In this document: in pieces, positions 8,386-33,014 of the stretch | Position numbering within the stretch: the first letter of the stretch is position 1 | Layout of the letters: every line of letters begins with the position of its first letter | IMG/VR virus record: IMGVR_UViG_2713896896_000010 | Span: 1 to 33,014 of that record | Origin: a virus | Taxonomy: Duplodnaviria; Heunggongvirae; Uroviricota; Caudoviricetes | Direction: 5' to 3' (one strand) | Length of the DNA stretch: 33,014 nt | Program-made: the position numbers and the translations under genes | Notes under the pieces: model-generated | Told to the model about the DNA's origin: nothing | Database searches by the model: none | What the model saw: only the letters and a program-made list of their open reading frames with translations

Positions 8386-8412
8386 AGCCCCTGCCATGCA
8401 GGGGCTTTTTTT
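8386..8412 (+). terminator. Rho-independent terminator
   Basis: Stem AGCCCCTGC / GCAGGGGCT with a 3-nt loop, followed by a T7 run. Read directly. Confidence 0.7.
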
Positions 8413-8418
8413 GTGGTC

Positions 8419-8446
8419 TGTACAGGCGATCATGTATGGCTATAAT
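8419..8446 (+). promoter_or_regulatory. Candidate sigma70 promoter for the mor-like gene
   Basis: Perfect TATAAT at 8441..8446. A weak -35 (TGTACA) lies 16 bp upstream. GGAG Shine-Dalgarno before the ATG at 8476. Confidence 0.3.
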
Positions 8447-8475: not shown

Positions 8476-8943
8476 ATGCAGACCTTCAGTGAAACAGATC
8501 TTCGCGATGCGCAGGCACTGCTGCCCGATTCCGTACAGCAACTGATTAGCGTGATTGGCTTCCCCGCTCTGACCCGGTTGATTCGTTCTTTTGGTGGCGT
8601 GACGTTAAGCGGTAAAACCGGCGCACACGCCGAACGCACCGGCGGTGTCCATGCCCTGTTACATGACGTGCTGACCGAAGACGAAATCAACAAACTGATC
8701 CGCTTTCTTGGCGGTGCACCGTTTTACATTCCCCGTTGTGATCATGCTTTACGTGCCCTGCGTAACACCCGTTTTATGGCTGATTTACAGCAGCATGTTA
8801 AAGGCGGTTGCTCACACCGACAGGCGCTGGCACTGCTTTGTCCCCGTTACGGGATTTCAGACCGGTATGCATGGCAACTGATACACCGACGACAAAAACA
8901 GACTTCGCTGAAAAGCCCCACCCAGGTGGGGCTTTTTGATTAA
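8476..8943 (+). CDS. mor: Mor/C-family transcriptional activator
   Basis: 155 aa. The C-terminal helix-turn-helix-like segment ...RYGISDRYAWQLI is typical of the Mor/C family. Position after gemA-like matches Mu mor. Confidence 0.65.
   Translation: MQTFSETDLRDAQALLPDSVQQLISVIGFPALTRLIRSFGGVTLSGKTGAHAERTGGVHALLHDVLTEDEINKLIRFLGGAPFYIPRCDHALRALRNTRFMADLQQHVKGGCSHRQALALLCPRYGISDRYAWQLIHRRQKQTSLKSPTQVGLFD
8914..8937 (+). terminator. Rho-independent terminator embedded in the 3' end of the mor-like gene
   Basis: GC-rich stem GCCCCACC / GGTGGGGC followed by TTTTT. Overlaps the last codons of the ORF. Confidence 0.55.
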
Positions 8944-10837: not shown

Positions 10838-11044
10838 GTGAGCATTATCAGATTTACAGAATGCGCAGGCTCAGGGAGCGCCAGCGCTGTCATGGTAGTC
10901 GCTGAACACATCACCCATTTTTACCGTCAGTGTGGTGCATATGGTGGCACGATCATTGAACTGGATACCGGGAAAAACGTGTATGTTCTTGAAAATCCCG
11001 ACGAAGTTAAATGCCTGATTGAACAGGCTCAGAAGGACACTTAA
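10838..11044 (+). CDS. Hypothetical small protein
   Basis: 68-aa ORF between the lysis and packaging genes. Confidence 0.45.
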   Translation: MSIIRFTECAGSGSASAVMVVAEHITHFYRQCGAYGGTIIELDTGKNVYVLENPDEVKCLIEQAQKDT

Positions 11045-11544
11045 TGGCGTGGTCACAGGATATCAGGGACAAAGTCCGTAACGGGTACATCTTTGACCAG
11101 CTTCCGCTGGATATCGTCGCCATGAAGTACGCCGTGCCGCACGACACCGCGCGGCGCTGGAAAACGCAGGCGATGAAGAACGGCGACGACTGGGACAAAC
11201 TGCGGGCCGCTCACGCGCTCGCCGGTGACGGGCTGGAAAGTGTTGCCCGCACCGTGCTTATCAGTCTGGTGGTGAAGTGTCAGACGACGCTTGAACGGCT
11301 GAACCAGAACCCGGACATCCCGCCGCAGGAGTCTGTCGAACTGCTGGCGAGTCTGTCTGACAGTCTCAGTAAGGCGGTGGCCAGCAGTAAAAAAATCCTG
11401 CCGGAAACCGACCGGCTCGCCACGGCACTGGAAGTGGTGCAGCGGCTCGGCGCGTTCATCAAGGAGCGTCACCCGGCGCAGTATGCCCCGTTTCTTGAGG
11501 TGCTCGAAGGCTTCGCTAAAGAGCTTGAGGATAATTTCAGTTAA
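11044..11544 (+). CDS. Putative terminase small subunit (Mu gp27/DUF1804-like)
   Basis: 166-aa ORF directly upstream of the packaging module. Family assignment from memory. Confidence 0.55.
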   Translation: MAWSQDIRDKVRNGYIFDQLPLDIVAMKYAVPHDTARRWKTQAMKNGDDWDKLRAAHALAGDGLESVARTVLISLVVKCQTTLERLNQNPDIPPQESVELLASLSDSLSKAVASSKKILPETDRLATALEVVQRLGAFIKERHPAQYAPFLEVLEGFAKELEDNFS

Positions 11545-11590
11545 CCATAGCGGCCCGGTTTTCCGGGCCGTCTGATATTCGGGATTTGTA

Positions 11591-12331
11591 ATGCAAAAAC
11601 AGATTATTGGTAACGCAACGTTGTATTGCGGTGATGTTCTTGATGTGCTGCCGGCGTTATCCGAACGTTTTGATGCCGTCATTACCGACCCGCCTTACAG
11701 CAGTGGTGGCATACACAAATCAGACCGCAGCATAGCCCCTTCGGACAAGTATGTCGGCCACACCCAGTATGCCGAGTTCACCGGCGATAACCGCGACCAG
11801 CGCAGCTGGGCGTTCTGGTGTTCCATGTGGATTTCTCATGCATTGCACAGGCTGAATCCCGGCGGTTATTTCATGGTGTTCAGTGACTGGCGACAACTAC
11901 CGGCACTTACCGATGCATTTCAGGCCGGTGGTGTGCTGTGGCGTGGTCTGGTTGTCTGGGATAAAACGCAGGCTTCCCGTGCGCCACACACCGGCTATTT
12001 CCGGCATCAGGCCGAGTATGTGGTCTGGGGCAGCAACGGAAAACTCGACAAATGCCCGCACGGTGGCCCGTTCCCGGGTGTGATTACGCAGCGCGTTGTC
12101 CCGTCCGAAAAACTGCACATGACCGCAAAGCCGGTTCAGCTGATGGCCGAGCTGGTTAAACCGCTGGCACCGGATGCGCACGTTCTCGATCCGTTTATGG
12201 GAAGCGGCACTACCGCCATCCCTGTACTTGCCCGTGGCGGACGGTTTACCGGCATTGAAATGACTAACCAGTATTTTGATATCGCCTGCGCACGTATCGA
12301 AAAAGCGCAGGCAGAAGCAGTGCAGGTGTGA
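11591..12331 (+). CDS. DNA N6-adenine/N4-cytosine methyltransferase (DPPY motif)
   Basis: Catalytic motif FDAVITDPPY near the N-terminus and an AdoMet-binding motif FMGSGTT near the C-terminus. No adjacent restriction endonuclease gene. Confidence 0.8.
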   Translation: MQKQIIGNATLYCGDVLDVLPALSERFDAVITDPPYSSGGIHKSDRSIAPSDKYVGHTQYAEFTGDNRDQRSWAFWCSMWISHALHRLNPGGYFMVFSDWRQLPALTDAFQAGGVLWRGLVVWDKTQASRAPHTGYFRHQAEYVVWGSNGKLDKCPHGGPFPGVITQRVVPSEKLHMTAKPVQLMAELVKPLAPDAHVLDPFMGSGTTAIPVLARGGRFTGIEMTNQYFDIACARIEKAQAEAVQV

Positions 12332-12332
12332 C

Positions 12333-13973
12333 GTGGCAAAACGTAAACTTTCCATTAAAGAGTTTCAGAGAAGCCTGCAGGAGTACATCGCCAACCTCCG
12401 CCAGACCATCGAGGCTGAATGTCTGGGGTTCGATGTTAACCCGCAGGCCACACAGGCCCGCCGGGCGGCAGTCTGCGACCCGGTGACGGGCTACGATTAT
12501 TTTGTCGAAAACTATTTCCCGCACTACGTCCGCAACCCGGCAAAAAGTGAGCTGCATAAATACCTGTTCACCCGTCTGCCACAGGTTGTGGCAAGCCCGG
12601 ACCCGGAGAACGACGCCATCGCCGCGCCCCGTGGTGAGGCAAAATCCACGCTGGTGACTCAGCTGTTTACCCTGTGGACCATTATCCGGGCCATTAAACA
12701 TTACCCGGTCATCATTATGGACAGTATCGACCAGGCTTATCCGATGCTGGAAGCCATCAAGGCTGAACTGGAATTTAACCCCCGTTTAAAAAACGATTTC
12801 CCGGAAGTGTGCGGACAGGGGCGCGTCTGGCGTATGGGGACCATCGTCACGGCCAACAATATCAAGGTGACCGTCGCCGGTAGCGGTAAAAAACTGCGTG
12901 GTCTGCGCCACGGTCCGTACCGTCCTGACCTGGTCATCCTCGACGACATCGAGAACGACGAGATGGTGCGTAACCCGGAGCAGCGCGACAAGCTGCATGA
13001 CTGGCTCACCAAAACCGTGATGCCGCTGGGTGAGGCTGGCGGTAAAACCGATATTATTTATATCGGGACCATTCTGCATTACGACTCCGTACTGTCGCGC
13101 ACACTCAATAACCCGATGTGGAAAACAGCCCGCTTTAAGGCCGTTATTCAGTGGCCTGCCAACATGAAGCTGTGGGACGAGTGGGAAGAACTCATCCGCA
13201 ACAAACAGCCGGAAGCAGCGGAGGCACTTTACCGGCAGAACGAAGCCGACATGCTCGCCGGGTCAGTGGTGTCATGGGCGGCGCGTCCCCTGCTGGCGCT
13301 GATGAAAATCCGTGTCCGTGACGGTCACGACACCTTTGATTCTGAATACCAGAACGACCCGGTCAGCGGTGAAGATGCGCTGTTTGCGGGCTGCATTAAG
13401 TTCTGGGTTAACCGTCTTGATGAATGGGTGTTCTACGGCGCTGTTGACCCCAGTCTCGGGAAGAAGAATAAAAACCGCGACCCGTCAGCCATTCTCGTGG
13501 GGGGCTTTAACCGCTTTACCGGCATTCTGGATGTGGTTGAAGCCGATATACGCCGACGTCTGCCGAATAAACTTATCGAAGACGTGATTAAGTATCAGCG
13601 GGAATATCACTGCCTGTGCTGGTCGTTTGAGTCCGTCCAGTTTCAGGAGTTTCTGCGTACCGTGCTGGTTGAGCGTTCGGCGGCGCTGGGTGTGCCGGTT
13701 CCGGCGCTGCCGGTCATCCCGCTGGAGGATAAGGCGCTGCGTATTGAGTCCCTTCAGCCGCATATGGCCAATGGTCTGATTCGTATCAGTCACACACATC
13801 AGACGCTGATTGACCAGCTGCGCCACTATCCCAAAGCCGACCATGATGATGGGCCGGACTGTCTGCACATGCTGTGGACGCTGGCGGTATCGCGCAGCGC
13901 AAAATTTCAGATACACACCCCACGCAGCACCGGGCGTGACCGTGGCGGGCGTTTTGGTTCAGGAGGATGGTAA
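12333..13973 (+). CDS. Terminase large subunit (Mu gp28-like)
   Basis: Large ORF after the small subunit. GTG at 12333 chosen because it follows the methyltransferase stop. The track start at 12276 is a TTG inside the methyltransferase gene. Confidence 0.75.
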   Translation: MAKRKLSIKEFQRSLQEYIANLRQTIEAECLGFDVNPQATQARRAAVCDPVTGYDYFVENYFPHYVRNPAKSELHKYLFTRLPQVVASPDPENDAIAAPRGEAKSTLVTQLFTLWTIIRAIKHYPVIIMDSIDQAYPMLEAIKAELEFNPRLKNDFPEVCGQGRVWRMGTIVTANNIKVTVAGSGKKLRGLRHGPYRPDLVILDDIENDEMVRNPEQRDKLHDWLTKTVMPLGEAGGKTDIIYIGTILHYDSVLSRTLNNPMWKTARFKAVIQWPANMKLWDEWEELIRNKQPEAAEALYRQNEADMLAGSVVSWAARPLLALMKIRVRDGHDTFDSEYQNDPVSGEDALFAGCIKFWVNRLDEWVFYGAVDPSLGKKNKNRDPSAILVGGFNRFTGILDVVEADIRRRLPNKLIEDVIKYQREYHCLCWSFESVQFQEFLRTVLVERSAALGVPVPALPVIPLEDKALRIESLQPHMANGLIRISHTHQTLIDQLRHYPKADHDDGPDCLHMLWTLAVSRSAKFQIHTPRSTGRDRGGRFGSGGW

Positions 13974-32008: not shown

Positions 32009-32440
32009 ATGGAAAAGACATATTATTTTAATCCCTCTGATTCGGGGTTTTATATTTCACCAGATAGCCAAACCATTCCTGAGAACGCTACGAAAATAAA
32101 CTTTACTATTTATTCTGAGTTCGCAGGAGTTGCATGGCCTGATGGTAAAATACTTGGTTCAGATAAAAATGGTTTTCCAATATGGCAGGATGCGCCACCA
32201 CTTACCAGCGAAGAATTAATCACAATCGCTGAATCAAATAAACAGCGATTAGTTAATCAGGCCAACGAATACATGAACAGTAAGCAATGGCCCGGTAAAG
32301 CCGCTATTGGCCGTCTGAAAGGCGAGGAACTGGCGCAATATAATCTGTGGCTGGATTATCTGGACGCACTGGAACTGATTGATACCTCCAGTGATCCAGA
32401 TATTGAATGGCCTACGCCTCCGGCAGTTCAGGCCAGATGA
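32009..32440 (+). CDS. Tail fibre assembly protein (Tfa)
   Basis: 143 aa. C-terminal LWLDYLDALELIDTSSDPDIEWPTPP is typical of Tfa chaperones. Confidence 0.7.
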   Translation: MEKTYYFNPSDSGFYISPDSQTIPENATKINFTIYSEFAGVAWPDGKILGSDKNGFPIWQDAPPLTSEELITIAESNKQRLVNQANEYMNSKQWPGKAAIGRLKGEELAQYNLWLDYLDALELIDTSSDPDIEWPTPPAVQAR

Positions 32441-33014
32441 CATCCGGCGCGGTGCTGGTATCTGTTGCCGTCACCGCGTCAATGTAATCCAGCACAGCGT
32501 TAAGTCTGGTTGTTTCTGCCTGCGTCAGTTTACGTCCGGCCTGCAATTTCAGTTGAATCAGACTGGTGGAAGCCATTGCAGTATCAATCAGCGACTGGCG
32601 CTGTACTTCTGCTGCATCTACTGCGGCGCTGTGCTGTGCCTCGGTATCCGTCACCCATTTCTCACCATCCCATTTATCGTATGACGTTAACGGAGCGAGA
32701 GTGGTTGTATTTTCAGGATAATCTCCCGGTACTGTAATTTCTTTTGCTTCTCCTGTTTCAGTGTTATAGACCGTTTCACCGCGATGGTCTGGCACGTACT
32801 CCCATGAGTTTAAATCTGCTGAACGGCAGATAGCATAACCAGCTTTATGTGTGCCAGGTGCATCTAAACAGGAATACGCCGGAATACCAACACCTACAGC
32901 AAGAAATTCGGTTGATGCAGAAATATATTCCCTTGTCTCACTGTTATAGTTGTAAACGATAATGTTTCCTTCCTGTACGGCAATAAGCTCATTGTTTAAT
33001 ATCGCGTTATTCAT
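32412..33014 (-). CDS. Alternative tail fibre assembly protein (Tfa'), convergent
   Basis: 200 aa on the minus strand. C-terminal LNAVLDYIDAVTATDTSTAPDVIWPELP parallels the + strand Tfa. Its ATG is the last three bases of the window, so anything upstream is unseen. Confidence 0.7.
   Translation of the reverse strand: MNNAILNNELIAVQEGNIIVYNYNSETREYISASTEFLAVGVGIPAYSCLDAPGTHKAGYAICRSADLNSWEYVPDHRGETVYNTETGEAKEITVPGDYPENTTTLAPLTSYDKWDGEKWVTDTEAQHSAAVDAAEVQRQSLIDTAMASTSLIQLKLQAGRKLTQAETTRLNAVLDYIDAVTATDTSTAPDVIWPELPEA

What the first reader, a model, noticed from the sequence alone, without database searches (positions are those of the whole stretch)
11591..12331. Orphan DNA methyltransferase between the terminase small and large subunit genes
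The DPPY catalytic motif lies near the N-terminus and the FxGxG AdoMet motif near the C-terminus, which indicates a beta-class amino-methyltransferase. There is no partner endonuclease. The large terminase GTG start follows one base after the methyltransferase stop, so the gene is embedded in the packaging operon. The likely role is self-methylation of phage DNA to evade host restriction, taking the place of the Mom modification that classical Mu uses. The target specificity is unknown.
Basis: partly seen in the sequence, partly recalled or inferred. Interest (0 to 1): 0.45.

Follow-up and report, generated by a model that had tools for sequence, protein, structure and literature searches.

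The report
Accessory DNA methyltransferase in Mu-like prophage
This is an ordinary phage-borne DNA adenine methyltransferase, already labelled as such in public databases, that was slotted as an optional extra gene just upstream of the large terminase gene of a Mu-like E. coli prophage and most likely marks phage DNA so that the next host's restriction enzymes do not cut it.

Summary
ORF 11591-12331 (+) encodes a 246-aa beta-class amino-methyltransferase. DPPY is at aa 33-36 and FMGSG at aa 202-206. It matches Pfam N6_N4_Mtase at 1.7e-24, and the AF2 model best matches solved beta-class enzymes. The terL GTG at 12333 follows the TGA stop after one base.

The window is a Mu-like E. coli prophage. 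The identical protein is already in NCBI nr as "DNA methyltransferase", and the gene is present in EPEC E2348/69.

New here:
- The gene is an optional cassette. 35 complete E. coli genomes carry it. About 19 have the same prophage with nt 11580-12322 replaced by 7 nt.
- Homologues at 52-80% identity occupy other slots in Mu-like, P2-like (often behind Com), lambdoid and BPP-1 phages.
- No nuclease partner, Com or Mom was found. Full-length relatives keep only a 31-codon gin remnant at the right end.

The "small terminase" label for the upstream DUF1804 gene rests on position only.

Most likely role: late-expressed N6-adenine self-methylation for restriction evasion. This is inferred, and the target site is unknown.

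Verdict: ordinary, a known kind, low interest.

The parts
11044..11544 (+). DUF1804-family gene (166 aa). It occupies the position that the small terminase gene holds in Mu. Its function is not established.
   Evidence: Pfam DUF1804 2.8e-52; PHROG 756 'DNA binding protein' 1.8e-67. Mu gp27 is PF11985, a different family. No tblastn similarity to Mu gp27. AF2 single-sequence model is all-helical with pLDDT 68, and Foldseek was uninformative.
11550..11571 (+). GC-rich hairpin (GCGGCCCGG-TTTT-CCGGGCCGT) just after the DUF1804 stop. It belongs to the conserved backbone, not to the MTase cassette.
   Evidence: RNA fold of 11530-11620: -29.1 kcal/mol, z = -3.1. Present in MTase+ and MTase- alleles. 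The Yersinia relative keeps it with one compensatory outer pair. No T-run follows, so it is not a classical terminator.
11580..12322 (+). The insertion/deletion segment: 743 nt present in MTase+ prophages and replaced by TGTATAC in MTase- prophages.
   Evidence: Alignments of the window against E. coli UMNF18. The DUF1804-to-TerL gap is 791 nt versus 55 nt across E. coli and IMG/VR loci.
11591..12331 (+). Orphan beta-class DNA (most likely N6-adenine) methyltransferase, 246 aa.
11687..11698 (+). Motif IV, D33-P-P-Y36 (catalytic, binds the target base). It lies in the invariant stretch T32-DPPY-SSG39.
   Evidence: Sequence. Invariant in 33 homologues of 56-92% identity.
12194..12208 (+). Motif I, F202-M-G-S-G206 (AdoMet binding), within DPFMGSGTT.
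   Evidence: Sequence. D200, P201, F202, M203, G204 and S205 are invariant. G206 is Ala in about 13 of the 28 homologues in alignment A3. Aligns with motif I of M1.HpyAVI, M.BceJIV and CcrM.
12324..12328 (+). Shine-Dalgarno-like AGGTG for terL. It lies inside the last two codons of the MTase and is part of the flank shared with MTase- alleles.
   Evidence: Sequence. Shared right flank CAGGTGTGACGTG.
12333..13973 (+). Large terminase gene (GTG start, 546 aa).
   Evidence: PHROG 38 'terminase large subunit' 5.7e-144. NCBIfam TIGR01630 4e-25. PGAP annotates terL with the same start in relatives.

Best explanation
The ORF is an accessory ('moron') gene for a solitary beta-class DNA methyltransferase, most likely N6-adenine-specific. 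It was inserted, almost exactly as a bare ORF, between the DUF1804 gene and terL in the first late (lysis-head) operon of a Mu-like transposable prophage of E. coli. Shown: the enzyme family, intact motifs, fold, lack of a detectable nuclease partner, the insertion boundaries, the presence/absence polymorphism, and the absence of com/mom. Inferred: (i) The gene has no promoter of its own and is transcribed with the late genes after induction. Its stop codon lies 1 nt before the terL start and overlaps the terL ribosome-binding site, so the two may be translationally coupled. (ii) The enzyme, probably a dimer like other beta-class enzymes, flips target adenines and methylates N6 on replicated phage (and host) DNA shortly before headful packaging. 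(iii) Progeny DNA then enters the next cell pre-methylated and escapes those restriction systems whose sites overlap the enzyme's motif. This is the job Mom does in Mu and that Hia5/Hin1523, M.EcoGII or Com-controlled methylases do in other temperate phages. The recognition sequence is unknown. The putative DNA-contact loop aa 125-140 is the best conserved part of the family, so relatives in other phages probably share one specificity.
For: Family and activity-competence: Pfam N6_N4_Mtase 1.7e-24, PHROG_67 7e-54, PADLOC MTase_II 6e-65. The T-DPPY-SSG stretch and D200-S205 of motif I are invariant in 33 homologues. Position 206 varies between Gly and Ala. The AF2 model (pLDDT 83, pTM 0.83) best matches M1.HpyAVI, CcrM, M.BceJIV, M.MboIIA, M.RsrI and M.PvuII (sequence hits). 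Selection: intact in every allele examined. Against the Yersinia allele there are 96 synonymous versus 49 non-synonymous codon differences. Adenine target: all homologues have D (not S) in motif IV, and the closest solved relatives are N6A enzymes. Orphan status: flanked by DUF1804 and terL, with no nuclease or defence-family hit in the remaining unannotated ORFs. Late co-expression: no promoter-like or terminator-like site on the + strand between 9548 and 14500. A Mor/C-family activator gene lies upstream, and in Mu the equivalent genes are in the C-activated late operon. Accessory nature: 35 E. coli genomes carry the gene and about 19 have the same prophage without it. In IMG/VR the split is 12 versus 7. 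The junctions are clean. Mobile anti-restriction-type cassette: homologues occur behind com in P2-like phages (PMC3091744), at a Mu-like prophage's right end in Serratia, and in the lysis cassette of a Salmonella Mu-like prophage. Mom is missing from this lineage. General framework for MGE orphan methylases expressed on exit: PMC12707154, PMC5778455, PMC3299994.
Against: There is no direct evidence of expression, activity, target base or protection. About a third of the lineage does without the gene and without Mom, so the benefit is conditional. Hin1523 and Hia5 in Haemophilus prophages and M.EcoGII in E. coli were silent in their hosts even after induction attempts, so such genes can be cryptic. 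The MTase start has only a weak Shine-Dalgarno-like GGGA. The late promoter was not located. The beta-class family contains N4-cytosine enzymes, and N6A and N4C enzymes do not separate cleanly by sequence (PMC7544214).
Confidence: 0.68

Rival explanations
1. Same enzyme class and same anti-restriction purpose, but the enzyme is promiscuous. It would methylate adenine in a very short or degenerate context (as M.EcoGIX does at SAY, Hia5 at AB/BA, or M.EcoGII at any A) and so act as a broad-spectrum replacement for the lost Mom.
For: The protein is small (246 aa) with no separate folded recognition domain in the model; only loops lie between the core elements. It aligns over its full length (about 28% identity) with the leading-region 'DNA methylase' of thousands of conjugative plasmids and weakly with NCBIfam PRK13699. 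That is the family to which the SAY-specific M.EcoGIX is said to belong (PMC7736820). Degenerate sites are the expected design for MGE orphan methylases (PMC12707154). The lineage has lost com-mom.
Against: The closest solved relative of similar size, M1.HpyAVI, is reported (from my memory) as site-specific (GAGG). The protein shares only the generic motif regions with M.EcoGII (28% over 64 aa). It lacks the alpha-class architecture of Hia5. It scores far below the PRK13699 cut-off (75.8 versus 244 bits). Strong conservation of loop 125-140 fits a defined recognition surface. The relative Bpm of phage BPP-1 (52.5% identity) was described, as I recall, as having an 'unusual site specificity', not none. 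That paper could not be retrieved.
Confidence: 0.25
2. The enzyme is an N4-cytosine rather than an N6-adenine methyltransferase.
For: Pfam N6_N4_Mtase covers both activities. N4C enzymes (M.PvuII, rotifer N4CMT) are among the structural matches. The two activities do not form separate sequence groups (PMC7544214).
Against: Motif IV is DPPY in all 33 homologues, whereas characterised N4C enzymes typically have S at the first position (established knowledge). The best sequence and fold matches are N6A enzymes. JGI and GenBank annotators call relatives adenine-specific.
Confidence: 0.08
3. Methylation serves the phage's own life cycle (marking DNA for packaging as Dam does at P1 pac, timing late transcription) or reprograms host gene expression in the lysogen, rather than evading restriction.
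For: The gene abuts terL and may be translationally coupled to it. P1 needs adenine methylation at pac, and many phage orphan methylases are proposed regulators (PMC12707154). Mu's own mom promoter is methylation-regulated (established knowledge).
Against: Near-identical prophages lack the gene with DUF1804 and terL otherwise unchanged, so packaging does not depend on it. In relatives the gene sits in unrelated slots (lysis cassette, prophage end, early operon). No own promoter was detected, which argues against expression in the lysogen.
Confidence: 0.07
4. It is half of an unrecognised restriction-modification or toxin-antidote pair, with the nuclease hidden among the prophage's hypothetical proteins; or it is an inactive relic.
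For: The best PADLOC model is a Type II R-M methyltransferase. About a dozen early-region ORFs have no family assignment.
Against: No adjacent candidate exists, and both neighbours are conserved backbone genes. The cassette that comes and goes contains only this ORF. MTase- prophages keep the same early genes, which would be lethal if one were a cognate nuclease. All motifs are intact and synonymous changes predominate, which argues against a relic.
Confidence: 0.03

Closest known systems
Phage and prophage orphan beta-class N6_N4 methyltransferases of the same subfamily: Bordetella phage BPP-1 Bpm, Com-linked methylases of P2-like phages (Escherichia phage Chuche, Burkholderia KS5 gp20, Stenotrophomonas Smp131), PHROG_67
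   Same: Same protein subfamily: 52-53% identity over about 94% of the length to Chuche and Bpm, and 43-45% to the Burkholderia, Ralstonia and Stenotrophomonas phage proteins. Same size, motifs and conserved loops. Solitary, phage-borne, and presumed to act against restriction (PMC3091744).
   Different: Here there is no Com translational regulator, and the gene sits in the DUF1804|terL junction of a Mu-like phage rather than at a P2-like prophage end or next to cro. None of these relatives' specificities could be verified with the tools available.
Mom (with Com) of phage Mu
   Same: Proposed biological role: late, pre-packaging modification of adenines in a transposable phage to evade restriction. 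This lineage lacks mom.
   Different: Unrelated protein and chemistry (Mom adds an acetamido-type group; annotation and PMC3299994). Different genome position: Mom is at the right end under its own Com- and C-controlled promoter. There is no sequence similarity.
Hia5 / Hin1523 / Nma1821 non-specific adenine methyltransferases of Mu-like prophages (Drozdz et al. 2012, PMC3299994)
   Same: m6A methyltransferases carried by Mom-less Mu-like prophages.
   Different: Those are alpha-class enzymes (FxGxG N-terminal, DPPY around residue 191-194), lie at the mom position and follow a com homologue. The window enzyme is beta-class, lies 20 kb away and has no com.
M.EcoGII / M.EcoGI (non-specific beta-class prophage methyltransferases of E. 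coli O104:H4)
   Same: Beta-class order of motifs, E. coli prophage origin, and expected silence in the lysogen (PMC5778455).
   Different: 349 aa with a roughly 125-aa four-helix recognition domain (PMC11551740) that the 246-aa window protein lacks. BLASTP similarity is limited to the motif I and motif IV regions.
M.EcoGIX / M.BceJIII plasmid leading-region methyltransferases (SAY, single-strand-directed; NCBIfam PRK13699-like)
   Same: Small beta-class orphan enzymes on mobile elements with an anti-restriction role. Full-length alignment at about 28% identity to plasmid 'DNA methylase' genes.
   Different: Scores well below the family cut-off (75.8 versus 244 bits). Phage late-operon context rather than a conjugative leading region. 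That the plasmid hits are M.EcoGIX-type is inferred from the paper's description, not tested by alignment to M.EcoGIX itself.
Solved beta-class enzymes M1.HpyAVI (5hfj), CcrM (6pbd), M.BceJIV (8urk)
   Same: Same fold and motif order. Foldseek E about 1e-14 to 1e-15, TM 0.67-0.73 on the query; phmmer 1e-14.
   Different: Only 20-23% identity. CcrM has an extra C-terminal domain. Recognition loops differ, so specificity cannot be transferred.

Membership tests
Beta-class amino (N6A/N4C) DNA methyltransferases (Pfam PF01555 N6_N4_Mtase) | Linear order of motif IV ((D/N/S)PP(Y/F/W)), then recognition region, then motif I (FxGxG) | tested here: met
   DPPY at aa 33-36, FMGSG at aa 202-206. The Pfam hit is above the gathering score (87.4 versus 26.7 bits).
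Beta-class amino (N6A/N4C) DNA methyltransferases (Pfam PF01555 N6_N4_Mtase) | Rossmann-like class I methyltransferase fold superposable on solved beta-class enzymes | tested here: met
   AF2 model pLDDT 83, pTM 0.83. The top 45 Foldseek PDB matches are beta-class DNA methyltransferases or Type III Mod subunits, with E down to 4e-15.
Beta-class amino (N6A/N4C) DNA methyltransferases (Pfam PF01555 N6_N4_Mtase) | AdoMet-dependent methyl transfer to an exocyclic amino group of DNA; functional dimer | not testable with these tools
   Needs expression plus SMRT/LC-MS and size-exclusion or crosslinking. The dimer requirement is taken from PMC7544214.
N6-adenine-specific subset | Asp at the first position of motif IV and closest characterised relatives being m6A enzymes | tested here: met
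   D33 is invariant in 33 homologues. The best PDB sequence and fold hits are N6A enzymes. This is suggestive rather than decisive, because N4C and N6A enzymes interleave.
Orphan (solitary) methyltransferase | No cognate restriction endonuclease gene adjacent or in the same element | tested here: met
   The neighbours are DUF1804 and terL. The indel cassette holds only this ORF. No nuclease or defence hits in the other ORFs scanned, and PGAP annotation of relatives shows none. A novel nuclease among the hypothetical proteins cannot be formally excluded.
Com-controlled modification cassette (Mu com-mom; P2-like com-methylase) | Small zinc-finger Com gene immediately upstream of, or overlapping, the modification gene | tested here: not met
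   tblastn of Mu Com and Chuche Com finds no hit with E<1 in the window or in full-length relatives. The 46-nt upstream spacer holds only a hairpin.
Mom-type adenine modification enzyme | Homology to Mu Mom | tested here: not met
   Mu Mom gives no tblastn hit. The ORF matches methyltransferase families only.
Hia5/Hin1523 alpha-class non-specific methyltransferases | Alpha-class order (FxGxG N-terminal, DPPY C-terminal); located at the mom position after com | tested here: not met
   The motif order here is the reverse. In the Hia5-type enzymes the catalytic Asp is D191/D194, and they are described as alpha-class. The position here is between DUF1804 and terL.
M.EcoGII family | About 349 aa with a central four-helix recognition domain; high similarity to M.EcoGII | tested here: not met
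   246 aa. BLASTP against the M.EcoGII sequence (from PMC11551740 Table S1) aligns only 64 + 32 residues around motifs I and IV.
NCBIfam PRK13699 (plasmid-type DNA methyltransferase) | Score at or above the curated cut-off of 244 bits | tested here: not met
   75.8 bits. About 28% identity to plasmid genes.
Phage small terminase (claim about the upstream gene) | Membership of a recognised TerS family, or a TerS-like fold or oligomer | tested here: inconclusive
   DUF1804 only. PHROG says 'DNA binding protein'. Unrelated to Mu gp27, which is PF11985. The helical model with pLDDT 68 gives no significant fold match. The only evidence is its position next to terL, as in FluMu and SuMu.

The most novel reading that the evidence does not exclude
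The enzyme could be a short- or degenerate-motif m6A methyltransferase. In that reading it would be a third, independently recruited substitute for Mom in transposable phages, after Mom itself and the alpha-class Hia5 type. It would have been picked up after this lineage deleted gin-com-mom, and its synthesis would be tied to that of the large terminase by stop/start coupling so that methylation peaks exactly at packaging. Because the recognition loops are conserved, the same specificity would then apply to a whole subfamily spread across Mu-like, P2-like, lambdoid and BPP-1-like phages. A compact 246-aa enzyme of this kind could also be useful as a footprinting tool.
Probability: 0.2. Interest if true: 0.45.

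Novelty: already known. Interest (0 to 1): 0.17.

Why it matters
As it stands this matters little. It is one more phage-borne solitary methyltransferase, correctly named by standard annotation and present in a long-studied reference strain (EPEC E2348/69).

Its modest value is as a natural experiment. E. coli carries near-isogenic Mu-like prophages with and without the gene. This would allow a clean test of how much a single orphan methylase widens a temperate phage's host range against restriction systems. It would also allow determination of the recognition motif of a widespread but uncharacterised subfamily.

If the motif proved degenerate, the case would illustrate convergent replacement of Mom and could yield a small enzyme for chromatin or DNA footprinting.

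Tried and rejected
1. Megablast of the region against the phage collection found no match. The element is known only as a prophage.

Only one of 80 loci had another Mu-type gene nearby, so it was uninformative for synteny. I used exact-protein look-ups and an IMG/VR scan with DUF1804 instead.

3. I tried to learn the recognition site from characterised relatives. The BPP-1 Bpm paper (Liu et al. 2004, J Bacteriol 186:1503) and the Murphy et al. 2013 review are not held. Text searches for Bpm, for E2348/69 methylomes and for Mu-like prophage methylases gave nothing usable. One query was rejected for syntax. REBASE is not available.

4. Relation to M.EcoGII: rejected after BLASTP against the published sequence.

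5. Relation to Hia5/Hin1523: rejected on class architecture as described in the papers.

6. The upstream hairpin as part of the cassette or as a terminator: rejected. It is present in both alleles and lacks a T-run.

7. Foreign base composition of the cassette: none. GC is 0.52-0.59, like the flanks.

8. Rfam scan of the window: no family match.

9. Testing whether DUF1804 is a small terminase by PDB sequence search and by single-sequence AF2 plus Foldseek: inconclusive.

10. Aligning the prophage right end with Mu's attR to define a gin-com-mom deletion: the alignment was not interpretable. I rely only on the tblastn result.

It was repeated with alignment A4.
Full report
**Observation.** The window has an ATG-initiated ORF at 11591-12331 on the + strand encoding 246 aa.
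- Read directly from the sequence, DPPY is at aa 33-36 (nt 11687-11698) and F-M-G-S-G is at aa 202-206 (nt 12194-12208).
- The TGA stop is 12329-12331, base 12332 is C, and a GTG at 12333 is in frame with the long downstream ORF.
- The protein matches Pfam N6_N4_Mtase (1.7e-24, above the gathering score), PHROG_67 'DNA methyltransferase' (7e-54) and PADLOC Type II methyltransferase model PDLC03321 over its full length (6e-65).
- The downstream ORF is a large terminase (PHROG 38, 5.7e-144; TIGR01630).

**What the element is.** The window runs from a ner-like HTH gene through MuA/MuB-type transposition genes, GemA, a Mor/C-family activator, holins, a GH108 endolysin and DUF1804. It then continues through the methyltransferase, TerL, Mu-type portal, MuF, protease, the major head protein gpT and a contractile tail, and ends in tail-fibre assembly genes.
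- A 2.2-kb segment around the finding matches 55 of 5426 complete E. coli genomes at 95-99% identity. These include EPEC E2348/69.
- In E2348/69 the prophage interrupts eutC. In strain 20KM0223N it lies between yeiQ and yeiP. Different insertion sites are what a transposable phage would give.
- PGAP already names the gene 'DNA methyltransferase'.
- The exact window protein is in NCBI nr as 'MULTISPECIES: DNA methyltransferase [Escherichia]' on 133 contigs.
- No sequenced free phage matches at the DNA level.

**Class and integrity of the enzyme.** The motif order (IV then I) defines the beta class.
- An alignment of 33 homologues (56-92% identity) has the stretch T-DPPY-SSG and D200-S205 of motif I invariant. 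Position 206 varies between Gly and Ala.
- An AF2 model built on that alignment (pLDDT 83, pTM 0.83) finds beta-class enzymes as its best solved matches (sequence-level hits). These are M1.HpyAVI, CcrM, M.BceJIV, M.MboIIA, TTHA0409, M.PvuII, M.RsrI and Type III Mod subunits.
- Alleles are intact and synonymous differences predominate: 96 synonymous versus 49 non-synonymous codon differences against the Yersinia allele.
- The invariant Asp in motif IV and the N6A nature of the nearest characterised enzymes favour adenine-N6 over cytosine-N4. Sequence alone cannot prove this (PMC7544214).
- Loop aa 125-140 is the least confident part of the model. It is also the most conserved segment, with mean column conservation 0.92 against 0.70 overall. 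This fits a DNA-contact element that orders on binding, and it suggests one specificity shared across the subfamily.

**Orphan status and Mom.**
- The immediate neighbours are backbone genes.
- Ten unassigned early ORFs plus other small ORFs gave no nuclease, methylase or defence-family hit.
- tblastn with Mu Com, Mu Mom and a P2-type Com found nothing (E<1) in the window or in two full-length relatives including their right ends.
- The only hit was a 31-residue N-terminal remnant of Gin next to the host junction (annotations).
The window itself stops before the right end.

**The gene is an optional cassette.**
- Among complete E. coli genomes, 35 carry DUF1804-MTase-terL. About 19 carry the same flanks (96-98% identity) with the methyltransferase precisely absent.
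- Among IMG/VR contigs with a DUF1804 protein at 95% identity or more, the split is 12 with and 7 without.
- Alignment with the MTase-less allele of strain UMNF18 shows the shared sequence ending at 11579 (…GTCTGATATT) and resuming at 12323 (CAGGTGTGACGTG…). In between lie 743 nt in the window and TGTATAC in UMNF18.
- The insert is therefore essentially the bare ORF plus 11 nt of leader.
- The last two codons and the stop of the methyltransferase lie in the shared flank, which also provides terL's AGGTG ribosome-binding site.
- In the MTase-less allele an in-frame TGA lies eight codons upstream of the GTG (read by hand from the same sequences). This supports GTG 12333 as the true terL start in both alleles.
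- The MTase-less UMNF18 prophage has no mom or other methylase annotated. The gene is therefore dispensable for the phage, and packaging does not depend on it.
- Base composition gives no sign of recent foreign origin.

**Where relatives sit.**

| Relative | Identity | Position |
|---|---|---|
| Yersinia | 80% | same slot as the window |
| Three IMG/VR contigs | 75-78% | same slot, two of them with extra small ORFs, one lipoprotein-like |
| Salmonella Mu-like prophage | 61% | between the holin and lysozyme genes; the DUF1804\|terL gap there holds other small ORFs |
| Serratia | 61% | right end of a prophage with Mu-type baseplate genes, the mom-equivalent position |
| P2-like prophage (P0027) | 65% | between an invertase and the tail sheath gene |
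| Delftia P2-like prophage | 59% | after the portal gene |
| E. coli prophage with HNH-TerS-TerL packaging genes | 60% | just before HNH-TerS-TerL |
| Methyloversatilis prophage | 58% | early region |
| Bordetella phage BPP-1 (bpm) | 52.5% | second gene after cro |
| Escherichia phage Chuche (P2-like) | 53% | behind a com gene |

- Burkholderia phage KS5 also has a Com-methylase pair of this kind (PMC3091744).
- The family is thus a promiscuous phage cassette. Its adjacency to terL here is one of many placements and not evidence of a packaging function.
- The DUF1804|terL junction is itself a variable slot. Gaps of 11, 47-55, 210-225, 482, 791, 833, 1113 and 1238 nt were seen.

**The 'small terminase' label.**
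- The upstream protein is DUF1804. PHROGs call it a DNA-binding protein.
- Mu's annotated small terminase gp27 directly abuts gp28 but belongs to Pfam PF11985. It shows no similarity to the window.
- A PDB sequence search and a single-sequence model (pLDDT 68; N-terminal short helices followed by long helices) gave no informative match.
- The label is a reasonable positional inference, shared with FluMu- and SuMu-type phages. It is not demonstrated.

**Mechanism (shown versus inferred).**
- Shown: an intact, conserved, solitary beta-class methyltransferase gene inserted in the late region. No promoter-like or terminator-like site lies on the + strand between 9548 and 14500. A Mor/C-family activator gene lies upstream, itself preceded by a terminator-like plus promoter-like pair at 8386-8446. 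This mirrors Mu's arrangement upstream of its C gene (a terminator and the Mor-activated middle promoter), with the C-activated late promoter lying between C and lys.
- Inferred: transcription only after induction as part of the lysis-head operon, and possible termination-reinitiation coupling to terL. Further inferred are N6-methylation of adenines on replicated DNA before headful packaging, and protection of incoming DNA from restriction in the next host.
- This is the 'protective methylation on exit' strategy reviewed in PMC12707154. It is exemplified by Mom, M.EcoGII (PMC5778455), Hia5/Hin1523 (PMC3299994) and the plasmid enzyme M.EcoGIX (PMC7736820).
- I put 0.68 on this overall. Roughly 0.9 of that is for an active amino-methyltransferase, 0.8 for adenine as the target, and 0.65-0.7 for restriction evasion as the selected role.

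**Rivals.**
- *A promiscuous or degenerate-site version of the same idea (0.25).* This is attractive because the protein is small, lacks a discrete recognition domain, and aligns end-to-end at about 28% with the leading-region methylases of thousands of conjugative plasmids. Against it: the protein is far below the PRK13699 cut-off. It shares only motif regions with M.EcoGII (using the sequence from PMC11551740), whose 125-aa four-helix domain it lacks. It also has the opposite architecture to Hia5.
- *N4-cytosine activity (0.08).* Disfavoured by the invariant Asp in motif IV and by the N6A nature of the nearest characterised enzymes.
- *A packaging or regulatory role (0.07).* Disfavoured by the natural MTase-less alleles and the varied placements of relatives.
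- *A hidden R-M pair or an inactive relic (0.03).* Disfavoured by the single-ORF cassette, the shared early genes in MTase-less prophages, and the intact motifs.

**Comparison with known systems and novelty.**
- The gene is a member of a known, widely annotated kind, and the identical protein is already in the databases under the same name.
- It is not a member of the Mom, Hia5-type, M.EcoGII or PRK13699 families, each of which fails a defining test. It is not a Com-controlled cassette.
- What is not in the literature I could search is its recognition sequence, and any explicit description of its on/off polymorphism in the E. coli Mu-like prophage lineage. These are incremental points.
- I therefore rate it 'already known' in kind, with interest 0.17.
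- The most novel reading not excluded is a degenerate-motif Mom substitute translationally tied to terL. I give that a probability of about 0.2 and an interest of about 0.45 if true.

**Limits.**
- No experiment was possible.
My recollection that Bpm has an 'unusual site specificity' is unverified.
- The late promoter was not located.
- The absence of a nuclease partner rests on family searches and on annotation.

Noticed in passing
window 11550-11571: A 9-bp GC-rich hairpin (GCGGCCCGG TTTT CCGGGCCGT) sits directly after the DUF1804 stop. It is conserved in MTase+ and MTase- alleles. In a Yersinia relative it is kept with one compensatory change of an outer pair. No T-run follows and no Rfam family matches. 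Its function is unknown; it could be an mRNA stabiliser, a processing site or a protein-binding site.
   Followed up: partly
window 11545-12332; loci L121 1887-2257, L124 5496-5991, L087 7543-8716, L125-L133: The DUF1804|terL junction is a variable 'moron slot' in Mu-like phages. Gaps of 11, 47-55, 210-225, 482, 791, 833, 1113 and 1238 nt were seen. L121 carries a 99-aa ORF with a lipoprotein-type signal (MKMKKMVKKICVCLAVLVLSAC...) ahead of the methylase. A Salmonella relative has a reverse-strand 159-aa ORF there.
   Followed up: partly
L100 1561-1653 (E2348/69) and L002 9650-9742 (20KM0223N), just beyond the window's right end: A 31-codon N-terminal remnant of the Gin invertase (77% identical to Mu Gin) lies next to the host junction. 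There is no intact gin, com or mom. This suggests that the lineage lost the gin-com-mom region. An attempt to align the end with Mu attR was not interpretable.
   Followed up: partly
window 32009-33014 (both strands): Two tail-fibre assembly (Caudo_TAP) genes face each other, as in Mu's invertible G segment, but the lineage has no intact invertase. The segment is probably frozen in one orientation.
   Followed up: no
window 11813-11917 (MTase aa 75-109): E. coli alleles of the methylase are mosaic. The E2348/69 allele differs from the window allele at 20 residues, 15 of them within aa 75-109. In that block it resembles the Yersinia allele. This points to recombination between alleles inside the gene.
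   Followed up: partly
window 8386-8446: A strong terminator-like hairpin with a T-run (8386-8406) is followed at once by the only sigma-70-like promoter in the 8-14.5 kb region (8419-8446). Both lie just upstream of the Mor/C-family gene at 8476-8943. This mirrors the terminator and middle promoter that precede the C-containing middle operon in Mu.
   Followed up: no
window 12333-13973: The large terminase has no Pfam-A hit at E<=1 and no tblastn similarity to Mu gp28. It is recognised only by PHROG 38 and NCBIfam TIGR01630 / T7-type models. The packaging module is therefore of the FluMu/SuMu type rather than the Mu type.
   Followed up: partly
L099 6920-7357 and L100 1762-2235 (E2348/69); L001 6420-9019 and L002 (20KM0223N); H116, H73, H74: The same prophage sits at different chromosomal sites: inside eutC in E2348/69, and between yeiQ and yeiP in a dog isolate. 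It also occurs on large plasmids (E. albertii 200 kb; two 249-kb E. coli records). This is consistent with active transposition.
   Followed up: no
window 11591-11600 versus 12333-12342: The starts of the methylase (ATGCAAAAAC) and of terL (GTGGCAAAAC) share GCAAAA(A)C. This may be microhomology at the insertion point, or it may be chance.
   Followed up: no
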